Sequence record: NC_047890.1
DNA: 42,686 nt
From: Escherichia phage PGT2
Direction: 5' to 3' (one strand)
Position 1 is the first letter of the stretch; every line of letters starts with the position of its first letter. The position numbers and the translations under genes were made by a program. The notes beneath the pieces were generated by a model, which saw nothing but the letters and a program-made list of their open reading frames with translations, was not told the origin of the DNA and ran no database searches. Shown piece by piece: positions 1 to 42,686 of the stretch.

Positions 1-260
1 TCCAACACAAATGAGGTCGCGTTTCCCCCGTAGGCCCGGCCTTCTGGATGGCTAAATGGCTGGATGGATGGATGGCTGGACGGCTAGACGTTTAGACGGC
101 TAAATGGCCAAATGACCGTAAAAAGGGCCGTGGGCACTGATAGGGTCAATCGGGCTGTAAGCCACGCCAACCGGGGTTTCCGCACATTACTTTATAAGAG
201 AGCTTGTAAGGTGTCTGGCGGCGATCCGTCTACGACGGGAGAAGGAAAGAGACGTGGGGT
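1..260. repeat. Left direct terminal repeat (DTR), 260 bp
   Basis: Bases 1-260 are identical to 42427-42686, checked block by block. The repeat runs to the window edge, so 260 bp is a minimum length. Confidence 0.9.
48..118. repeat. Array of short imperfect ~8-bp repeats (CTRRAYGG-like) inside the terminal repeat
   Basis: ggctaaatgg ctggatgg atggatgg ctggacgg ctagacgt ttagacgg ctaaatgg ccaaatga read directly. Resembles the short repeat series in T7 terminal repeats. Confidence 0.6.
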
Positions 261-316
261 ATCTATCTTTTTGGATACGCCTATCTTTTTCTAGTCATCT
301 ATCTTCTTACGATGAG

Positions 317-336
317 CTATCTATCTATCTATCTAT
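317..336. repeat. (CTAT)5 microsatellite flanked by TATCT-TTTTT iterons
   Basis: ctatctatctatctatctat at 317-336; ctatcttttt recurs at about 263-273 and 284-294, just inside the left terminal repeat. Confidence 0.6.
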
Positions 337-383
337 CCAGCTATCCGATTATCTTCGCTTCGACGGATCGGCTATCGCCTTTC

Positions 384-413
384 TTGTCTCCGCTACGATA
401 AGGGAGCTATACT
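384..413 (+). promoter_or_regulatory. Candidate sigma70-type promoter (TTGTCT-18-TATACT)
   Basis: -35 ttgtct at 384-389, -10 tatact at 408-413, 18-bp spacer; lies upstream of the strong RBS of ORF 453. Confidence 0.3.
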
Positions 414-452
414 AAGGATTGTGTTATTGCTCTTTAAGAATGAGGTGAGATT

Positions 453-656
453 ATGGCTATACGTAATTGGGCGGCGGTGCTGGCCATTGTGGATAGTGTG
501 GGGACTGAAGCGGCGTTATCCTTGCCGTATGTTCCGGCTGATGCTAACACTATGCCGGACCGGGCCAAAAGATATGCAATTGAGTACAACATACAACGGG
601 GGAAGTATGGCGAGACCTTGCCGGAAGTACCGACGTCGTGCACTTATCGGGATTGA
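453..656 (+). CDS. Hypothetical early protein (67 aa)
   Basis: ATG at 453 preceded by SD gaggtgag with 7-nt spacing; first ORF after the terminal repeat. Confidence 0.45.
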   Translation: MAIRNWAAVLAIVDSVGTEAALSLPYVPADANTMPDRAKRYAIEYNIQRGKYGETLPEVPTSCTYRD

Positions 657-1047
657 TGTATCCGGGTATCATCCGCCGGCTGTGGTCCGGAACTGGTTAA
701 GGGATACTTTAAGGGATGAATCCAAGGGACTAGCCGATCAGCTTATTTGTAAGCCGTGGGCTGTCTGGTTAGTTTGGGCGCATGATGAGATAGATAGTAA
801 GCGGGTCAGTCTTCTGTGCTGTGTAGGGGAGCGGCAAGCCTTAACTATTATGGATAACGCGGCCCGGCTTGACGGGTATCTGTGCCGGCTGTATCAGTCC
901 GATGGCGATGCGGTCGATATTAGTCATCTGTCCGAGTATAAATCGGTGCATAACTGGACCGGATACTGGAAGCATGTACACGGTGAGGATATGCCGATGA
1001 CGATTAGTGATGACGGATTGAGAAAGCTGCGGGAGATGATAGCATGA
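607..1047 (+). CDS. Hypothetical early protein (146 aa); possibly the C-terminal part of a frameshifted product with ORF 453-656
   Basis: ATG at 607 follows a G5 run (598-602); frame is +1 relative to ORF 453 and overlaps its 3' end; a strong terminator follows the stop. Confidence 0.35.
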   Translation: MARPCRKYRRRALIGIDVSGYHPPAVVRNWLRDTLRDESKGLADQLICKPWAVWLVWAHDEIDSKRVSLLCCVGERQALTIMDNAARLDGYLCRLYQSDGDAVDISHLSEYKSVHNWTGYWKHVHGEDMPMTISDDGLRKLREMIA

Positions 1048-1051
1048 TGAT

Positions 1052-1088
1052 AAGGGGCGGGGAGTGTATCCTTGCCCCTTTCTTTTTG
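1052..1088 (+). terminator. Rho-independent terminator
   Basis: 12-bp stem aaggggcgggga / tccttgcccctt (two G-U pairs), loop gtgta, then tctttttgt. Confidence 0.6.
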
Positions 1089-1217
1089 TATTGTGGATCC
1101 CTGACGTTCTCCTGATCGGGCTTATGCACTCATGGCTGTGCGTTGGCTTGTCTTACGTGTGATTAGGTGTCTGGTGAGAACGTGGGAGATTATTTTCGAT
1201 TATTTTTAAAATATCGC

Positions 1218-1246: not shown

Positions 1247-1442
1247 TAATTTCAACGGCGGGGTAGTGGGAAGACAAGCCGATAAAATAGGATTCCCTCC
1301 ACATGGTCAGTTACCATAGGTCATCCGAGACACCAAACGGAATAACTAACAAGTAGTAACACCGGGGCAAGGAGGCCGCCTCGAAAGAGGAAAGTAGCTG
1401 GTAATGGCGTATGAAGCATTACCCCGGTGAGAAAGAAAGAGA

Positions 1443-1471
1443 TTGACAAGTTCAGAAGTAAGCAGTAAGAT
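1443..1471 (+). promoter_or_regulatory. Candidate sigma70 early promoter (TTGACA-17-TAAGAT)
   Basis: Consensus -35 ttgaca at 1443-1448; -10 taagat at 1466-1471; shares the upstream 18-mer aagaaagagattgacaag with the promoter at 1639. Confidence 0.45.
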
Positions 1472-1638
1472 GTAAATCAAGCAGTACGGGAGGAGGCGCA
1501 ACGGAAGGCGCGACACGGCGGGGAGTGATACAAGGACGCGCCAAAGGGAGAACGGATAGGAACTGCGAACCCTTCCGGATACCCGCTACGGATAGCACAG
1601 TTTGCCGGAGTATGCAGACACGGTAAGCAAGAAAGAGA

Positions 1639-1667
1639 TTGACAAGCTGGACAAGTTACCCGATAAT
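1639..1667 (+). promoter_or_regulatory. Candidate sigma70 early promoter (TTGACA-17-GATAAT)
   Basis: Consensus -35 ttgaca at 1639-1644; -10 gataat at 1662-1667; an RBS and small ORF follow. Confidence 0.55.
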
Positions 1668-1698
1668 AAGCTCAACGAATCGCAACGAGGAGAGAGAA

Positions 1699-1857
1699 AT
1701 GACTTACTACGAATCAGCAGAGAACGAGATGATCACCGCAGCACGCGCAGAAAAAGAAGTGCGCCGCCACGGTTGCAGCGTAGCAGAATTTTACGCAGAC
1801 TGCGGTACTCATGAGGAGTACGACGCACAAGCTGTGTTAGAATGGTTAGGGTACTAA
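1699..1857 (+). CDS. Small acidic early protein (52 aa)
   Basis: ATG at 1699 preceded by SD aggagag; lies downstream of the promoter at 1639; 11 acidic versus 4 K/R residues. Confidence 0.45.
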   Translation: MTYYESAENEMITAARAEKEVRRHGCSVAEFYADCGTHEEYDAQAVLEWLGY

Positions 1858-1878
1858 CAGAAAGTTTGAAGAAATAGG

Positions 1879-1907
1879 TTGACAAGTTAAGCAGTAAGCA
1901 GTAACCT
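1879..1907 (+). promoter_or_regulatory. Candidate sigma70 early promoter (TTGACA-17-TAACCT, weak -10)
   Basis: -35 ttgaca at 1879-1884; the spacer carries two AAGCAGTA copies, paralogous to the promoter at 1443. Confidence 0.35.
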
Positions 1908-2122
1908 AGAAAGCAAGCAGTACAGCAGTATCACAGCAGCCTAGAATAGGTTGAGTCGCACTCGGTGTGAATAGCTGACCTGACAGCGATATGGTTCAGG
2001 GGGGCCGGAGGATAGACAGTGACGTCGCCAATAAGCCCAACAAACGAAAGGTTTGTTAGTGTATCCTCACAGTAGGGTACAGCAACAAACTAACCGTAAA
2101 CGCAACGTAAACGAGGCGCACC

Positions 2123-19095: not shown

Positions 19096-19139
19096 TGATT
19101 TAGGGTATTTGTTAAATATGGCTTGAAGCCTTGATATAT

Positions 19140-19169
19140 GGGGTTTCCGCACATTATTTTAATAAGGGG
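19140..19169 (+). promoter_or_regulatory. Conserved 28-bp element GGGGTTTCCGCACATTAYTTTA(A)TAAGRG; candidate phage promoter or other regulatory site
   Basis: Near-identical copies at 173-200 and 42599-42626 (inside the terminal repeats); first 17 nt identical, then 1 mismatch and 1 indel. Confidence 0.4.
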
Positions 19170-35714: not shown

Positions 35715-35743
35715 GGTGGGCTTCGGCCCACCTCTATTTTATT
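35715..35743 (+). terminator. Rho-independent terminator between the gp16-like gene and the tail fiber gene
   Basis: Perfect 7-bp stem ggtgggc / gcccacc with loop ttcg, then tctattttatt. Confidence 0.6.
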
Positions 35744-35753
35744 GGAGATTTTG

Positions 35754-38516
35754 ATGGCTATTACGTTTTATGCTACCAACAACTTCACTGGTGATGGTAC
35801 TACCGTAAACTGGAATATTAACTTCGCAGACGGTTATATCGACATCACCACCGTGAAGGCGCGGTATCTGGATAATACCGGGAGCTACGTTGACATCGCT
35901 ATTTCAAGCGTGGCAGGAAACGTAGTAACCATTTCCCCGGCTGTGGCGGACGGTCAGGAGTTCCAAATCTATCGTGATACAGAGAAGCGGTTCCCGCTGG
36001 TGGACTTCTCTGACGGTGCAATCCTCAACGAGACTAACCTTGACACGCTGGCTACTCAAGCTGTGATGGTGTCTGCTGAGGCATTCGACCAGTCTAACAA
36101 CGGTGTGCGTATCGCAGGTGATTCCTTGGTTGTTGCACAGGGTATCGACGCCAAGGCACAGGAAGCTCTGGACAACTCCGAGGCTGCTGTAGCTACAGCG
36201 AACGGTATCGACGGTAAAGCGCAGACGGCATTGAATACCGCCGCCGCCGCTGTCGCCACGGCTAATGCTGCCACATCTACTGCTGCTGGTGCTGTATCTA
36301 CGGCCAACACCGCACTGTCTACTGCCCACGATGCCGCCGATGACGCAGCTACCGCTATCACTACCGCTAACGGCGCTGTGATTACGGCCAATGCTGCAAC
36401 CACTACGGCCAACGCCGCTAGTGCTGCCGCCTCTGCTGCAACGACTACTGCGAACAGTGCTGCAAACGACGCTGCTACTGCTGTGTCTACTGCGGGTACG
36501 GCCTTGTCTACTGCGAACACCGCATCTACCAACGCCTCTACCGCTGTGTCCACGGCTAACGGCGCTAAGGCTACTGCTGAGGGTATCGAGGCTAAAGCGG
36601 ATTCTGCTTTGGCAGCCTCTGCTACCGCTGTGTCCACAGCTAACTCAGCCGAGGCTACGGCCAACGCTATCGACGGTAAGGCTACGGACGCATTAGACAC
36701 TGCCGACTCCGCTGTGGCTACGGCTAACGCTGCTGTTTCTACGGCTAACTCTGCTACTGCTACGGCTAATGCTGCCTCTTCTACTGCGAGTTCGGCTGCC
36801 TCTGACGCCAGTACCGCCTTGAGCACAGCTAATGCTATTGACGCAAAGGCACAGACTGCTTTGGATAATACCACGGCTCTGGATGCGGCCACCATGAAGA
36901 AAGCCGCCAACTTATCTGATATTGCGGATAAGGCGGCTGCATGGCTTAACGTCCGTCCTATTGGCTCCACGCCATTGGCAGGCGACCCGGTAGGGGATTA
37001 CGATGCTGTTACTAAGCGTTGGGTAGAGAACCTGATTAACACAGGTACTGTCGGTCCAACCATGAACGGGGTGATGAACTTCGGCGTCGGTGACTTCCAT
37101 CTCCGGGATAGCCGCGCGTACATCCAGCCTTATGAGGTTGTCTCTGACGGTCAGTTACTGAACCGCGCTGACTGGCCTGAACTTTGGGCCTACGCCCAAA
37201 TGCTGTCGCCTATAACGGATGCAGCTTGGTTGGCAGACCCTCTCAAGCGCGGCGCTTACTCTACCGGAAACGGAACCACTACCTTCCGAGTACCGGATAG
37301 GAACGGTGTTCAGTCAGGCTCTGTAAGGGCGCTTTTTGGGCGTGGTGACGGTGGGAACTCTTCTATCGGCAGTACCATCATGGAGTCCTTCGTACCGAAT
37401 ATCACGGCTACGTTAAATATGCACGGTGCTGGTCCCGCATCAGAACCTGCCGCTGGTACTAACGTGGCAGGATTTGGTGGTGCCTTGGTTGCTACGGGAG
37501 AGGCTCTCCCGAGATACCTGCGTGGGGTTACTCTGTTATCTGCTGGTGGTAACTCCTATGGTGGAGCTACCTTCGATGCCTCCCGTTCCAGTGCTGCTTA
37601 TGGTCGTGGTGGTCTGACTACGGATGAGGTTCTGCCGCGTAACTTCACTGGTGTATGGGTAATTCGTGCATCTGGCGGCTTCGTAGCGGCTAATACGCAG
37701 TGGCAGGTTATAAACCAAGATGCGACTAGGCCCGGTAACGGTACTGCCGTCTTAGGTGGTAATATTGTATCTGAGTACCGCGTTGGTGGTGCCTTGGAGG
37801 GTACAGCAAACTTCCGTATGGCGGGTACTATCGATGGTTCGTATGGCGCGCGCATTGCTGTTTATAATGCCACATCTTTAAATGGCGCCAGCTTCGATTT
37901 TACAGAGCACGGGAACATAGAGACTCCCCTTGGTAGGGCTATTGTTATAGGCAACTATGGTATAGGTTCGCAAGCAGATGCTATACCTACTTCGAGGGAT
38001 AACGCATTTATCTCTAACGCTGATAGTAATAGTTCTTGGTCTGCTTCTAACGGGGGTGGCTTTCAAATTACATATGCAGCTAACCGTATCGTCCAGTTCT
38101 GGGTAAGTCAAGGTGGTACTACGGCTTATTTCCGTGCTAATAGCACAGACAGTAACCCCCAACGACCGAAGTCTGCATCTCCTTGGGTCACACTCCAGAA
38201 TGCTGGTACTTCGGACGCTAATGTAAAAACCGTCCTCGGTGACTTAGACTTATCTATACCGTTGAGTAATATCAACGCACTGGAGTTTAAGAAATTCCGC
38301 TACAACAAGGATGGTGAGGATGGCCCGGTTCGACGGGGCATTATCGCGCAGCAGGCGCAGAATGTGGACCCGGAGTACGTACATTCTGCGGATAAGTCCG
38401 GGGTTATGACTCTTGATAGTAACCCGCTGCTGTTGGATGCTCTAGCTGCTGTCAAAGCACTATCTGCTAAAGTGGCCGCTCTGGAAGAGCGTATTGATGA
38501 ACTAACTTCTCAGTAA
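35754..38516 (+). CDS. Tail fiber protein: T7 gp17-like N-terminal adaptor, Ala/Thr/Ser-rich repeat shaft, C-terminal intramolecular chaperone domain
   Basis: N-terminus LVDFSDGAILNETNLDTLATQAVMVSAEA parallels T7 gp17 [29 protein letters not shown]; C-terminus GIIAQQAQ...LAAVKALSAKVAALEERIDELT is chaperone-like; ORF track start 35742 is a TTG. Confidence 0.8.
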   Translation: MAITFYATNNFTGDGTTVNWNINFADGYIDITTVKARYLDNTGSYVDIAISSVAGNVVTISPAVADGQEFQIYRDTEKRFPLVDFSDGAILNETNLDTLATQAVMVSAEAFDQSNNGVRIAGDSLVVAQGIDAKAQEALDNSEAAVATANGIDGKAQTALNTAAAAVATANAATSTAAGAVSTANTALSTAHDAADDAATAITTANGAVITANAATTTANAASAAASAATTTANSAANDAATAVSTAGTALSTANTASTNASTAVSTANGAKATAEGIEAKADSALAASATAVSTANSAEATANAIDGKATDALDTADSAVATANAAVSTANSATATANAASSTASSAASDASTALSTANAIDAKAQTALDNTTALDAATMKKAANLSDIADKAAAWLNVRPIGSTPLAGDPVGDYDAVTKRWVENLINTGTVGPTMNGVMNFGVGDFHLRDSRAYIQPYEVVSDGQLLNRADWPELWAYAQMLSPITDAAWLADPLKRGAYSTGNGTTTFRVPDRNGVQSGSVRALFGRGDGGNSSIGSTIMESFVPNITATLNMHGAGPASEPAAGTNVAGFGGALVATGEALPRYLRGVTLLSAGGNSYGGATFDASRSSAAYGRGGLTTDEVLPRNFTGVWVIRASGGFVAANTQWQVINQDATRPGNGTAVLGGNIVSEYRVGGALEGTANFRMAGTIDGSYGARIAVYNATSLNGASFDFTEHGNIETPLGRAIVIGNYGIGSQADAIPTSRDNAFISNADSNSSWSASNGGGFQITYAANRIVQFWVSQGGTTAYFRANSTDSNPQRPKSASPWVTLQNAGTSDANVKTVLGDLDLSIPLSNINALEFKKFRYNKDGEDGPVRRGIIAQQAQNVDPEYVHSADKSGVMTLDSNPLLLDALAAVKALSAKVAALEERIDELTSQ
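36100..36900. repeat. Imperfect tandem codon repeats (STAN/ATAN units) inside the tail fiber gene
   Basis: About 16 copies of nCyACnGCnAAy (encoding x-T-A-N) at roughly 7-, 11- and 14-residue spacing. Confidence 0.7.
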
Positions 38517-38897: not shown

Positions 38898-40696
38898 GAG
38901 AATCAGCAGAAAGAGAAGAACAGCGGTTACTTGAACTCGCAGCACTGCGGGACATGTACCCCACGTTCCTACCGTTTCTGATTGATTTCATGGTGATGCT
39001 CGGATTCTTCGTCACCCCGGTACAGAAGCTCATTGCTCAATTCCTTGAGTACGGGCCTCTGTACCGGATGGTGCAGGCCCAGCGTGGCCAAGCGAAGACT
39101 ACCATCACAGCCGCATATGCAATCTGGCGACTTATCCACGATACCAACCTTGCCGTGTTAATCGTCTCGGCAGGGGGCAAGCAGGCGAACGAGATTTCAA
39201 CCCTCATCGTCCGCTCATTCAAAACGTGGGATAAGCTGGCCTGCATGTGTCCTGACGCCTCTATGGGCGACCGTGAGTCAGTCGAAGCATTCGACGTTCA
39301 CTACAACTTAAAGAGGCTGAATAAATCTCCGTCCGTGGCCTGTACTGGCATCACGGGTAACTTGCAGGGTAAACGTGCGGGTCTGCTTATCGCGGACGAC
39401 GTTGAGTCCCAGAAGAACTCCCTGACTGCGGTCATGCGTGAGAACCTTCTGAACCTGACTCGTGACTTTACCTCCATCTGCTCCACCGGGGATATTATCT
39501 ACCTCGGTACACCGCAGACTACAGAATCAATTTATAACACCCTGCCGGGGCGTGGCTTTACTGTCCGCATCTGGCCGGGACGTTTCCCTACCGCAGAGCA
39601 GGTGGAAGCCTACGGCGACCAGCTATGCCCTGTCTTTAGGATGAAGATTGCTTCACGCCCTGACCTGACTACAGGCTACGGGCCGGATGGGCTTCAGGGT
39701 GCTCCGGTTGACCCTGTAATCCTCGGCGAAGCCTTCCTGAACAAGAAAGAGATTGACCAAGGAACTGCATACTTCCAGTTGCAGCACATGCTTCAGACGC
39801 GCCTGATGGATGCTATGCGCAAGCCATTACACGCAGAGAAGCTGATTGTGGCCCAACTGCCGAAGCGTGACGGTCTGTTCCCTATCACCATTACGCGAGA
39901 AATCTCTGTACAAGCCTACATGCGCCGAAACGTCCTGAGCAAGCCTCTGGTATTCGGTGTGCCCGGTAGCGTGTCTAAGGACGTCGCTACGCTTCAGGGC
40001 GTATGCTTCTACATCGACCCTGCTGGTGGTGGTAAGAACGCGGATGAAACTGCATTCGCTTGTACCGGGTTCCTGAACTCCAATATCTTCCTACTGGATT
40101 GGGGCGGCTTACCGGGCGGATATGCCCCGGATGTTATGTCCGCTCTCGCTCAACGTGTGTTTGATGTACGGCCCAATGTTGTCAAAATCGAAAAGAACTT
40201 CGGTTACGGCGCATTCCGCGAAGTATGGTTGCCGTACCTCTGGGCCATTTATGATAAAGCTGGTGTTAACCGTCCCGGCGTAGAGGACGATATGGTACAC
40301 GGCCAGAAGGAGAAGCGAATCATTGATACGCTTGAGCCTGTAATGGGTCGTGGCTCGCTTATTGTTGACGAGCGTCTCATCAAGGAAGACGAAGACCAAA
40401 CCATGCGGTACAGCGCACAAATGCGTGTGACGTACTCCGGGTTCCTACAGATGGTTAATATCTCCTACGACAAAGATGCGTTGGTGCATGATGACCGACT
40501 GGATGCTTTGGAAGGAGCGGTTCGTCATTGGCAGGATTGGCTTGCCAAGAACCAAGAGAAGGCCATTCAGGCTCAACGGAAACGTGAGTTCGAAGAGTGG
40601 CAGAAAGACCCTATGATGAAGAAGCGTTGTCAGTCCGTGAAGGAATACAATGCTGGTCGTCGTGGTAAAACCATGTTTGATAAGAGAAAACGCTAA
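38888..40696 (+). CDS. Terminase large subunit
   Basis: LAVLIVSAGGKQ, SPSVACTGITGNLQGKRAGLLIADDVESQKNS, IIYLGTPQT and ALVHDDRLDALEGA match the corresponding T7 gp19 segments. Confidence 0.9.
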   Translation: MALRESAEREEQRLLELAALRDMYPTFLPFLIDFMVMLGFFVTPVQKLIAQFLEYGPLYRMVQAQRGQAKTTITAAYAIWRLIHDTNLAVLIVSAGGKQANEISTLIVRSFKTWDKLACMCPDASMGDRESVEAFDVHYNLKRLNKSPSVACTGITGNLQGKRAGLLIADDVESQKNSLTAVMRENLLNLTRDFTSICSTGDIIYLGTPQTTESIYNTLPGRGFTVRIWPGRFPTAEQVEAYGDQLCPVFRMKIASRPDLTTGYGPDGLQGAPVDPVILGEAFLNKKEIDQGTAYFQLQHMLQTRLMDAMRKPLHAEKLIVAQLPKRDGLFPITITREISVQAYMRRNVLSKPLVFGVPGSVSKDVATLQGVCFYIDPAGGGKNADETAFACTGFLNSNIFLLDWGGLPGGYAPDVMSALAQRVFDVRPNVVKIEKNFGYGAFREVWLPYLWAIYDKAGVNRPGVEDDMVHGQKEKRIIDTLEPVMGRGSLIVDERLIKEDEDQTMRYSAQMRVTYSGFLQMVNISYDKDALVHDDRLDALEGAVRHWQDWLAKNQEKAIQAQRKREFEEWQKDPMMKKRCQSVKEYNAGRRGKTMFDKRKR

Positions 40697-42250: not shown

Positions 42251-42402
42251 AAGCTCTCACAAGCTCTACAACGCTCTCAAGGACGAGAGCAGTACGATGT
42301 TACCACCTGACCCTGATTAGATGCCTGATGACTTCATTAGCACGTTTTAAGTTGATTCCTGATTACGTGGTTAGCTAGTCCACAGAGGGCAGTCCTAAAA
42401 TT

Positions 42403-42411
42403 TGATATAAT
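42403..42411 (+). promoter_or_regulatory. Extended -10 promoter element (TGaTATAAT) facing the right terminal repeat
   Basis: tg at 42403-42404 and perfect tataat at 42406-42411; no good -35, which extended -10 promoters can lack. Confidence 0.35.
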
Positions 42412-42426
42412 TTTGTGAGGGGGCAG

Positions 42427-42686
42427 TCCAACACAAATGAGGTCGCGTTTCCCCCGTAGGCCCGGCCTTCTGGATGGCTAAATGGCTGGATGGATGGATG
42501 GCTGGACGGCTAGACGTTTAGACGGCTAAATGGCCAAATGACCGTAAAAAGGGCCGTGGGCACTGATAGGGTCAATCGGGCTGTAAGCCACGCCAACCGG
42601 GGTTTCCGCACATTACTTTATAAGAGAGCTTGTAAGGTGTCTGGCGGCGATCCGTCTACGACGGGAGAAGGAAAGAGACGTGGGGT
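42427..42686. repeat. Right direct terminal repeat (DTR), 260 bp
   Basis: Exact copy of 1-260. Confidence 0.9.

What the first reader, a model, noticed from the sequence alone, without database searches (positions are those of the whole stretch)
42395..42426. Extended -10 promoter at the right genome end reading into the terminal repeat
A perfect TGnTATAAT at 42403-42411 lies about 15 bp before the right repeat, oriented outward. In concatemeric or circularised DNA it would transcribe across the repeat into the left-end early region; this could link transcription to concatemer processing or replication.
Basis: partly seen in the sequence, partly recalled or inferred. Interest (0 to 1): 0.35.

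Follow-up and report, generated by a model that had tools for sequence, protein, structure and literature searches.

The report
Promoter look-alike in phage end-processing signal
The perfect bacterial promoter motif next to the right terminal repeat of coliphage PGT2 is real, but it is one spelling of a DNA signal that T7-family phages keep at the edge of the repeat, most likely for cutting genomes out of concatemers, and the bases a promoter needs are not what is conserved.

Summary
The window is E. coli phage PGT2 (Autographiviridae, Ermolevavirus), whose ends were set by analogy. TGATATAAT is at 42403-42411 (+), with 15 nt between it and the 260-bp right repeat, as reported. One perfect match per genome is expected by chance (0.81), but only about 0.005 in that 176-nt intergenic stretch.

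The nonamer lies inside a composite element that spans the left edge of the repeat. Its parts are a GC box, an A-tract/T-tract core containing TG(R)T, a GYGAG box 12 nt after the conserved T, the repeat boundary 5-8 nt further on, and CCCCCRTAGG about 25 nt inside the repeat. I found the same element, in the same register, in 26 other lineages, including T7, T3, SP6, K1-5, phiKMV, LUZ19, KP34, Percy and phiR8-01.

Across those lineages T-15, G-14, T-12 and T-10 are kept. A-11, which sigma-70 cannot do without, is present in only 12 of 26. The nearest divergent relative reads TGGATTAGA.

Genome-wide 5'-end mapping in LUZ19, which carries TGATATCGT there, describes no start site at that position. 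In T7, packaging is coupled to the phage polymerase, and host polymerase activity harms it.

Verdict: this is a family end-processing signal that resembles a promoter. It may fire adventitiously. A selected promoter role is unlikely.

The parts
42403..42411 (+). TGATATAAT, a perfect extended -10 consensus. This is the finding itself.
   Evidence: It is the only perfect match in the window.
42396..42414 (.). AT-rich core TAAAATTTGATATAATTTT (an A-tract, then a T-tract, then G-R-T). This is the conserved middle of the repeat-boundary element.
   Evidence: The same core sits in the same register in 26 other lineages. It is the least sequence-conserved part between PGT2 and L004 (13 of 22 identical, read from the sequences), although its length and AT-richness are kept.
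42415..42419 (.). GTGAG box (family consensus GYGAG), 12 nt after the conserved T of TG.
   Evidence: the T-to-box distance is 12 nt in nearly all of the 27 lineages tabulated; the box ends 5-8 nt before the repeat boundary.
42384..42395 (.). Upstream GC box AGAGGGCAGTCC, copy 1 of a 12-nt direct repeat.
   Evidence: Read. L004 has GAGGGGCATTCC at the same place. Other lineages have a shorter ..RCC box there.
42418..42429 (.). AGGGGGCAGTCC, copy 2 of the direct repeat, 34 nt after copy 1. It spans the annotated left edge of the right repeat (GGGCAG|TCC).
   Evidence: It is 12 of 12 identical in L004.
42427..42686 (.). Right copy of the 260-bp direct terminal repeat. The left copy is 1-260.
   Evidence: 100% identical. 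The boundaries were set by analogy.
42448..42465 (.). TTTCCCCCGTAGGCCCGG, the family hallmark CCCCCRTAGG about 25 nt inside the repeat. The left copy is at 22-39.
   Evidence: It is present 25-30 nt inside the repeat in 17 lineages, including T7 (CCCCCATAGGGGG). The distance from the conserved TG to this hallmark is about 48-50 nt.
42574..42620 (+). Phage-polymerase-promoter-like element inside the repeat (GGCTGTAAGCC ... GGGGTTTCCGCACATTACTTTA). The left copy is at 148-194, and a third copy is at 19115-19161, just after the RNA polymerase gene.
   Evidence: 0 expected by chance. It is conserved in the L004 repeat. The function is inferred.
261..272 (+). ATCTATCTTTTT immediately after the repeat. 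It occupies the position of the T7/T3 ATCTGTT pause signal for the phage polymerase.
   Evidence: It is identical in L004 and phiKT, and Percy has A|TCTATCTT. The function is inferred.
384..413 (+). Sigma-70 promoter TTGTCT-18-TATACT in front of the first left-end gene. It serves here as the positive control for promoter conservation.
   Evidence: The -10 is kept in phiKT (TATAAT) and in L004 (TGcTATACT).

Best explanation
The nonamer is the PGT2/phiKT spelling of the AT-rich core of a composite DNA signal that Autographiviridae keep across the left edge of the terminal repeat.

In a concatemer, one repeat copy lies between two genomes. The cut that creates the left end of the downstream genome falls 5-8 nt after the GYGAG box. 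I infer that the element is read as one unit by the phage maturation machinery (terminase small and large subunits, possibly with a host bending protein). The element consists of a GC box, an A-tract/T-tract with TG(R)T, GYGAG, the cut, and then CCCCCRTAGG about 25 nt inside the repeat. The conserved parts lie about 48-50 nt apart, on either side of the cut. The AT-rich tract would supply a bend or an easily opened stretch next to the cut or nick that defines the left end and starts duplication of the repeat.

The match to TGnTATAAT follows from this AT-rich TG..T core. In PGT2 it may fire as an adventitious host promoter, but that is not why the sequence is there.

If transcription is linked to packaging in this phage, the link more likely runs through the phage polymerase. 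A phage-type promoter lies inside the repeat (173-194), about 70 nt upstream of ATCTATCTTTTT, which is at the position of the T7 junction pause site.

Shown: the sequence, its location, the conservation, the fixed register, and the non-conservation of A-11. Inferred: which protein reads the element, the cleavage chemistry, and the pause function.
For: - The element is conserved between PGT2 and L004 as an island in otherwise unalignable non-coding DNA. Only window 42387-42466 aligns by BLAST, at 85%. The flanking 22 nt AGGGGGCAGTCCAACACAAATG are 22 of 22 identical, while the AT core is 13 of 22 identical with its length kept.
- The same architecture occurs upstream of the right repeat in T7, T3, SP6, K1-5, phiKMV, LUZ19, KP34, Percy and phiR8-01. 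It also occurs in 15 metagenomic relatives found only through their terminase.
- The register is fixed. The T-to-GYGAG distance is 12 nt in nearly all of 27 lineages. T-15 is kept in 26 of 26, G-14 in 22, T-12 in 20 and T-10 in 18. The CCCCRTAG hallmark lies 25-30 nt inside the repeat.
- Unconstrained positions in two motif scans recovered SP6-like, phiKMV and three further lineages, all with the hallmark at the same offset.
- The right edge of the repeat also carries a family motif: ATCTGTT in T7 and T3, A|TCTGTTC in SP6 and K1-5, and ATCTATCTT in PGT2, L004 and Percy.
- In T7, the phage polymerase paused just after the junction is thought to recruit gp18 and gp19.
Against: - No experiment on PGT2, phiKT or any close relative shows that this element is bound or cut by terminase. 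I could not retrieve the T7/T3 deletion studies of packaging signals, so the link to a defined pac sub-site rests on my own recollection.
- The boundaries in PGT2 and in all metagenomic loci are inferred.
- LKA1 lacks a recognisable core, and T7 and T3 have an AT-rich tract without TG (TACCATAAA), so the core sequence is not universal.
- The plurality consensus TG.TA...T does resemble an extended -10, so a host-polymerase role in some lineages is not excluded.
- Single-strand folding shows no hairpin potential beyond shuffled controls (z from -0.5 to +1.6). A hairpin-based mechanism therefore gets no support.
Confidence: 0.6

Rival explanations
1. It is a selected host sigma-70 extended -10 promoter. 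Host RNA polymerase would start near 42418, transcribe the repeat in concatemers, and either express left-end genes or help open or duplicate the repeat.
For: - It is a perfect TGnTATAAT with T at -17/-16.
- It lies in gene-sense orientation in non-coding DNA, where about 0.005 matches are expected.
- The family plurality consensus at the aligned positions is TG.TA...T. Six of 26 lineages keep all five key bases: phiR8-01 TGATATAGT, phiKMV and LUZ19 TGATATCGT, and L173, L186 and L231.
- There are T7-group precedents for host-type promoters at genome ends. The leftward promoter A0 is annotated in or next to the repeat of T3 and T7. The T7 junction terminator acts as a TGn promoter for E. coli polymerase in plasmids (bioRxiv 10.64898/2026.02.12.705533).
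Against: - A-11 is kept in only 12 of 26 lineages and T-7 in 14 of 26. Only 1 of 15 terminase-sampled relatives has the full pattern.
- L004 reads TGGATTAGA, while the first-gene -10 is fully conserved in the same comparison.
- SP6 (TATAGG) and K1-5 (TGTAGG) keep the motif but not a workable -10.
- The LUZ19 paper reports 9 start sites and describes none at the right end.
- On a monomer the product would be a 269-nt run-off with no ribosome-binding site or meaningful ORF.
- Late read-through should already cross the junction, because no terminator-like site follows the last gene.
- In T7, host polymerase activity late in infection is harmful to packaging.
Confidence: 0.12
2. The AT-rich core is chiefly a site for a host architectural protein such as IHF, or a DNA-unwinding element of a terminal replication origin, rather than a terminase signal.
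For: - A-tract/T-tract composition is kept even where the sequence drifts.
- Read on the complementary strand, SP6 matches the IHF consensus WATCAANNNNTTR exactly (TATCAAAATTTTG). PGT2 matches with one mismatch (TATCAAATTTTAG). Both are my reading of the sequences.
- From my own knowledge, T7 has a secondary origin associated with the right-end promoter region.
Against: - The IHF 3' half is absent in phiKMV and phiR8-01, and the TGGTGTA-type relatives lack the ATCAA core altogether.
- The fixed register to GYGAG and to the boundary points to end formation rather than to an origin.
- No iterons or initiator boxes were found around the element.
Confidence: 0.15
3. It is a chance match in neutral AT-rich spacer DNA and has no function at all.
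For: About one perfect match per genome is expected. phiKT is too close (97%) for its identity to carry information.
Against: The surrounding element is conserved in register across subfamilies and hosts. In L004 it is an island of conservation within diverged non-coding DNA.
Confidence: 0.08

Closest known systems
T7/T3 concatemer-junction maturation signals: sequences flanking the terminal repeat that are needed for end formation, plus the junction (CJ) pause site for the phage RNA polymerase
   Same: - It sits at the edge of the terminal repeat.
- T7 and T3 have an AT-rich tract followed by CTGAG or CTGAA, then 6 nt to the boundary. The repeat starts with TC.., and CCCCCATAGG lies about 25 nt inside it.
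- A conserved ATCT.. motif follows directly after the repeat.
   Different: - The T7 and T3 cores lack TG and any -10 look-alike at the aligned position (TACCATAAA, TACCACAAA).
- PGT2 has ATCTATC rather than the strictly conserved ATCTGTT.
- PGT2 carries its putative phage promoter inside the repeat, whereas T7 phiOR lies about 550 bp upstream of it.
- Function has been tested only in T7 and T3.
T7 CJ class II terminator acting as a context-dependent TGn extended -10 promoter for E. coli RNA polymerase (Bao and Forster, bioRxiv 2026)
   Same: A junction signal of a T7-family phage that also reads as an extended -10 promoter. Promoter activity was seen in plasmids, and the passages I read give it no role in infection.
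   Different: That element lies at the right edge of the repeat (TGTTACAGT within ATCTGTTACAGT). The PGT2 nonamer is at the left edge and is unrelated in sequence. PGT2 activity is untested.
Minor E. coli promoter A0 of T7 and T3
   Same: A host-type promoter annotated in or beside the terminal repeat and pointing out of the genome end. I know of no function for it (own knowledge).
   Different: A0 is at the left end and reads leftward, antisense to the genes. It is annotated in T3 with separate -35 and -10 signals. The PGT2 motif is at the right end, in gene sense, and has only a -10.
Canonical sigma-70 extended -10 promoters (TGnTATAAT)
   Same: The sequence match is perfect, including T-rich positions at -17/-16.
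   Different: There is no evidence of a transcript, no unit for it to serve, and the key bases are not conserved in relatives.

Membership tests
Sigma-70 extended -10 promoter | TG at -15/-14 and a -10 hexamer with A-11 and T-7 | tested here: met
   TGATATAAT at 42403-42411.
Sigma-70 extended -10 promoter | Occurrence beyond chance | tested here: inconclusive
   1 found against 0.81 expected genome-wide. About 0.005 expected in the 176-nt intergenic region, but that test was chosen after the fact, and the conserved AT-rich element explains the placement.
Sigma-70 extended -10 promoter | Key -10 bases kept in relatives, as they are for the genuine promoters of this phage group | tested here: not met
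   L004 reads TGGATTAGA. A-11 is present in 12 of 26 lineages and the full pattern in 6 of 26, or 1 of 15 in the terminase-sampled set. Control: the first-gene -10 is conserved in PGT2, phiKT and L004.
Sigma-70 extended -10 promoter | A transcript 5' end 6-8 nt downstream | not testable with these tools
   The nearest data are from LUZ19, which carries the homologous TGATATCGT. It has 9 mapped start sites, none described at the right end (PMC10914365). The threshold was stringent, the -10 is weaker and the supplement table was not held.
Sigma-70 extended -10 promoter | A transcription unit that depends on it | tested here: not met
   The 269-nt run-off contains no ribosome-binding site or real ORF. 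The first left-end gene has its own promoter at 384-413 and a terminator at 1052-1080.
T7-group repeat-boundary (concatemer junction) maturation signal | Lies at the edge of the direct terminal repeat | tested here: met
   The core ends 12 nt before the annotated boundary, and the second GC box spans it. The boundary itself was inferred by the depositors.
T7-group repeat-boundary (concatemer junction) maturation signal | Conserved in sequence and register among related phages | tested here: met
   27 lineages were tabulated. The T-to-GYGAG distance is 12 nt in nearly all, and the hallmark CCCCRTAG lies 25-30 nt inside the repeat.
T7-group repeat-boundary (concatemer junction) maturation signal | Class II pause signal ATCTGTT directly after the repeat | tested here: inconclusive
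   PGT2, phiKT and L004 have ATCTATCTTTTT at 261-272, which matches 5 of the 7 bases. Percy has a similar sequence, whereas T7, T3, SP6 and K1-5 have ATCTGTT. The seven-base motif is described as strictly conserved for T7 polymerase. The PGT2 polymerase is only distantly related.
T7-group repeat-boundary (concatemer junction) maturation signal | Required for cleavage or packaging | not testable with these tools
   This needs mutant phage or an in vitro terminase assay.
IHF binding site | WATCAANNNNTTR | tested here: not met
   Read on the complementary strand, PGT2 is TATCAAATTTTAG, with one mismatch in TTR. SP6 is exact. phiKMV, phiR8-01 and the TGGTGTA-type relatives fail (my reading).

The most novel reading that the evidence does not exclude
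In the lineages that spell the core as TGnTAnnnT (PGT2/phiKT, phiR8-01, phiKMV/LUZ19, L173, L186, L231), host RNA polymerase holoenzyme may be a working part of end formation. It would dock with its start site 8-10 nt before the left-end cut, and either open the DNA at the cut or make a repeat-length RNA that stops at the ATCT.. signal just after the repeat. The 2026 preprint reports that class II signals also terminate E. coli polymerase in vivo. That RNA or R-loop would assist duplication of the terminal repeat.
Probability: 0.06. Interest if true: 0.7.

Novelty: new member of a known kind. Interest (0 to 1): 0.25.

Why it matters
The practical lesson is for annotation. A perfect promoter consensus next to a terminal repeat of a T7-family phage should not be annotated as a promoter on sequence alone, because the family end-processing signal itself looks like an extended -10.

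The useful by-product is a register-fixed description of that signal across at least six subfamilies or genera. Its order is GC box, A/T-tract with TG(R)T, 12 nt to GYGAG, 5-8 nt to the boundary, then CCCCCRTAGG about 25 nt inside the repeat, with an ATCT.. motif after the repeat. This description can be used to place the true ends in the many circularly assembled Autographiviridae genomes. It also gives precise targets for testing how these phages cut the left end and duplicate the repeat, which as far as I know has been worked out experimentally only for T7 and T3.

If the low-probability reading were true, and host polymerase docking were part of end formation, it would be a new kind of host dependency in late phage development.

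Tried and rejected
- **Motif count.** It is not significant genome-wide.
- **The generic promoter scan.** It did not list the site, because it requires a -35.
- **phiKT as a conservation test.** At 97% identity it is uninformative.
- **Nucleotide search for relatives of the right-end region.** Megablast and blastn against GenBank phages found only phiKT, plus short hits to an 8-bp array in jumbo phages.
- **Exact-pattern scan of metagenome contigs** with GGGCAGTCCAACACAAATG: no hits. The viral-contig scan returned only PGT2, phiKT and L004.
- **Hairpin or cruciform idea** (AAAATT..AATTTT palindrome; the T7 hairpin-intermediate model recalled from memory). DNA folding of six homologous junctions gave z-scores from -0.5 to +1.6, so there is no support.
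- **IHF site.** It is exact only in SP6.
- **Rfam.** Nothing in the window reached a gathering score.
- **Host-polymerase inhibitor among PGT2 early proteins.** The PHROGs search gave no informative hit for ten early ORFs, so host shut-off in this phage remains unknown.
- **Primary literature.** Papers on T7/T3 packaging-signal deletions and the SP6 genome paper were not held. The LUZ19 start-site table was not held.
- **A second -10 register** (TAnnnT two bases downstream) is not consistently present across relatives.

Full report
**Identity of the window.** The last 2.2 kb is 96.7% identical to Escherichia phage phiKT (Autographiviridae, Ermolevavirus). The length (42,686 bp) and the 260-bp repeat match the published description of E. 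coli phage PGT2 (PMC5773715). [quoted passage not shown] The placement agreed with restriction mapping. The boundaries are therefore inferred, not read from the ends.

**The observation.** TGATATAAT is at 42403-42411 on the + strand. The exact repeat is 1-260 = 42427-42686, so 15 nt lie between the hexamer and the repeat. No -35 is present at a 16-18 nt spacer. Genome-wide, one perfect match is what chance gives: 0.81 are expected, and 58 of 100 shuffles have at least one. Only about 0.005 matches are expected on the sense strand of the 176-nt last intergenic region. The motif is real and oddly placed, and the placement needs an explanation.

**Local anatomy.** The nonamer sits in a 19-nt A-tract/T-tract core (42396-42414), followed by GTGAG (42415-42419). 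The core is flanked by a 12-nt direct repeat: AGAGGGCAGTCC at 42384-42395 and AGGGGGCAGTCC at 42418-42429. The second copy spans the repeat boundary.

Inside the repeat there are three features:
- TTTCCCCCGTAGGCCCGG (22-39, and 42448-42465 in the right copy).
- An 8-bp-period array (44-108).
- An element, GGGGTTTCCGCACATTAyTTTA, whose only other copy lies just after the RNA polymerase gene, at 19140-19161. None is expected by chance. I read it as a phage-polymerase promoter. This is an inference, and it matches the position of mapped phage promoters in LUZ19.

Directly after the repeat comes ATCTATCTTTTT (261-272). The first gene has its own promoter (TTGTCT-18-TATACT, 384-413) and its own terminator (1052-1080), upstream of three strong TTGACA-type early promoters. 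No terminator-like site follows the last gene, so late transcripts should already cross the junction in concatemers.

**The nearest informative relative.** phiKT is too close to be informative. A terminase-based search of viral contigs found L004, whose terminase is 88% identical and whose assembly runs through the junction. Between the last gene and the first gene, only islands align:
- the boundary element (42385-42466);
- the phage-promoter-like element;
- the last bases of the repeat plus ATCTATCTTTTT;
- the -10, leader and start of the first gene.

Within the boundary element, the 22 nt AGGGGGCAGTCCAACACAAATG are identical. The 22-nt core is only 13 of 22 identical and reads TGGATTAGA where PGT2 has TGATATAAT, so both A-11 and T-7 are lost. 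Core length and AT-richness are kept. In the same alignment GCTATACTA, the first-gene -10, is identical. A real promoter of this phage group is therefore conserved at this distance, and the right-end motif is not.

**The family view.** I extracted the sequence upstream of the right repeat from records that carry both repeats: T7, T3, SP6, K1-5, phiKMV, LKA1, KP34, Percy and phiR8-01. I added LUZ19. All except LKA1 show the same plan as PGT2:
- a short GC box ending in CC or TC;
- an A-tract/T-tract;
- then, for example, TTTGATATAG (SP6, phiR8-01), TTTGATATCG (phiKMV, LUZ19), ATGGTGTAG (Percy), TTTATTAGA (KP34) or ATATACCAT (T7);
- a GYGAG-type box, followed by 5-8 nt to the boundary;
- a repeat that starts TC.. 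or CC..;
- CCCCCRTAGG 25-30 nt inside the repeat.

Two motif scans with unconstrained positions and a profile-based terminase search added 17 metagenomic lineages with the same plan.

In the 27-lineage table, the distance from the conserved T to the box is 12 nt in nearly all. Excluding PGT2, base conservation among the other 26 lineages is:

| Position | Base | Lineages with it (of 26) |
|---|---|---|
| -15 | T | 26 |
| -14 | G | 22 |
| -12 | T | 20 |
| -11 | A | 12 |
| -10 | T | 18 |
| -7 | T | 14 |

All five promoter-critical bases occur together in 6 of 26 lineages. Among the 15 relatives sampled only by their terminase, they occur together in 1.

The conserved object is therefore an A/T-tract-TG(R)T...GYGAG signal in fixed register with the repeat boundary, not a -10 hexamer. 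The base that sigma-70 flips out (A-11; background) is the least conserved of the 'promoter' positions.

**Experimental evidence from relatives.** LUZ19 carries TGATATCGT in the homologous place. ONT-cappable-seq of LUZ19 found nine start sites:
- five host-type promoters at the far left;
- two phage-type promoters after the polymerase gene;
- one phage-type promoter in the structural region;
- one antisense promoter in the early region.

None is described at the right end (PMC10914365). There are caveats. The enrichment threshold was stringent, the LUZ19 hexamer is weaker than the PGT2 one, and I could not see the supplementary table.

[quoted passage not shown] Failure to inhibit host polymerase leads to a packaging defect. 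By analogy, a host promoter firing into the junction late in infection would be at best neutral. Whether PGT2 shuts off host polymerase is unknown, because no early protein gave an informative family hit.

**What it most likely is.** The nonamer is the PGT2/phiKT spelling of the core of the repeat's left-boundary signal. I infer that this signal is read by the maturation machinery when the left end of the next genome is cut and the single junction repeat is duplicated. The conserved parts lie on both sides of the cut, about 48-50 nt apart, which fits recognition as one unit. The A/T tract would provide a bend or an easily opened stretch. A hairpin mechanism is not supported.

The likely link between transcription and packaging in this phage is a phage-type promoter inside the repeat that fires toward ATCTATCTTTTT about 70 nt downstream. 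That motif occupies the position of the T7/T3 ATCTGTT pause site. This is an inference and should be tested.

**What remains possible.** A perfect TGnTATAAT with T at -17/-16 would very likely be active on naked DNA, so an adventitious transcript is plausible. T7-group precedents exist for promoter activity of junction or end sequences with no demonstrated role. The T7 junction terminator is a TGn promoter in plasmids, and promoter A0 is annotated in or next to the repeat. The family plurality consensus TG.TA...T leaves a small chance that host polymerase docking is itself used in some lineages.

**Comparison with what is known, and novelty.** The closest known system is the T7/T3 concatemer-junction maturation signal set. 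PGT2 shares its position, its plan and its hallmark motifs. It differs in the core spelling, in the motif after the repeat (ATCTATC against ATCTGTT), and in having the putative phage promoter inside the repeat. As a promoter, the site meets the consensus test but fails the conservation and need tests. I rate it a new member of a known kind (a repeat-boundary signal), and the promoter annotation is not warranted. Interest is low to moderate. The useful product is the register-fixed description of the boundary signal across subfamilies.

Noticed in passing
window 44-108 (= 42470-42534): An 8-bp-period array (RAYGGCTA, about 8 units) inside the terminal repeat. It matches similar arrays at about 82% in the long terminal repeats of jumbo coliphages and relatives (PBECO4/121Q group, GAP32, CBB). 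One example is OQ718158 positions 815-889, inside its 21.5-kb repeat. The array is absent from the shorter repeat of L004.
   Followed up: partly
window 148-194 (= 42574-42620) and 19115-19161: A 47-nt element is found twice: inside the terminal repeat, and just after the RNA polymerase gene ahead of the structural genes. It has a GGCTnnnAGCC palindrome followed by GGGGTTTCCGCACATTAyTTTA. It is probably the phage polymerase promoter. It is conserved in the repeat of L004.
   Followed up: partly
window 261-345: Directly after the left repeat, ATCTATCTTTTT occurs twice (261-272 and 282-293), followed by a (CTAT)n run (317-345). The first copy is identical in phiKT and L004 and sits where T7 and T3 have the ATCTGTT polymerase pause signal.
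   Followed up: partly
window 384-1090: A separate first transcription unit lies upstream of the three strong early promoters. It consists of promoter 384-413, a strong ribosome-binding site with ATG at 453, and a hairpin terminator at 1052-1080. By my reading, the ATG-453 frame stops at 654-656, whereas the long ORF (421-1047) is in another frame. This means either two small genes or a frameshift in a 454-sequenced genome. L004 appears to have one longer ORF there. There was no PHROG match.
   Followed up: partly
window 1425-1930: Three early promoters share a longer repeated block (AAGAAAGAGATTGACAAGTT...GCAGTAAG...), not just the hexamers (families D6 and D8). A fourth, partial copy of the block, with TTGACC, lies at 39735-39760 inside the terminase gene.
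   Followed up: no
window 36244-36829: A long run of 21-nt-period (7-codon) Ala/Thr/Ser-rich repeats lies inside the 924-aa tail fibre gene (35742-38516).
   Followed up: no
window 42254-42375: The non-coding stretch before the boundary element holds three GCTCTCA units, one of which forms a GCTCTC/GAGAGC hairpin. It also holds three CCTGAT(T/G)A units, reminiscent of the CCTAAAG arrays that flank the T7 repeat. None of this is conserved in L004, which has an extra ORF there instead.
   Followed up: no
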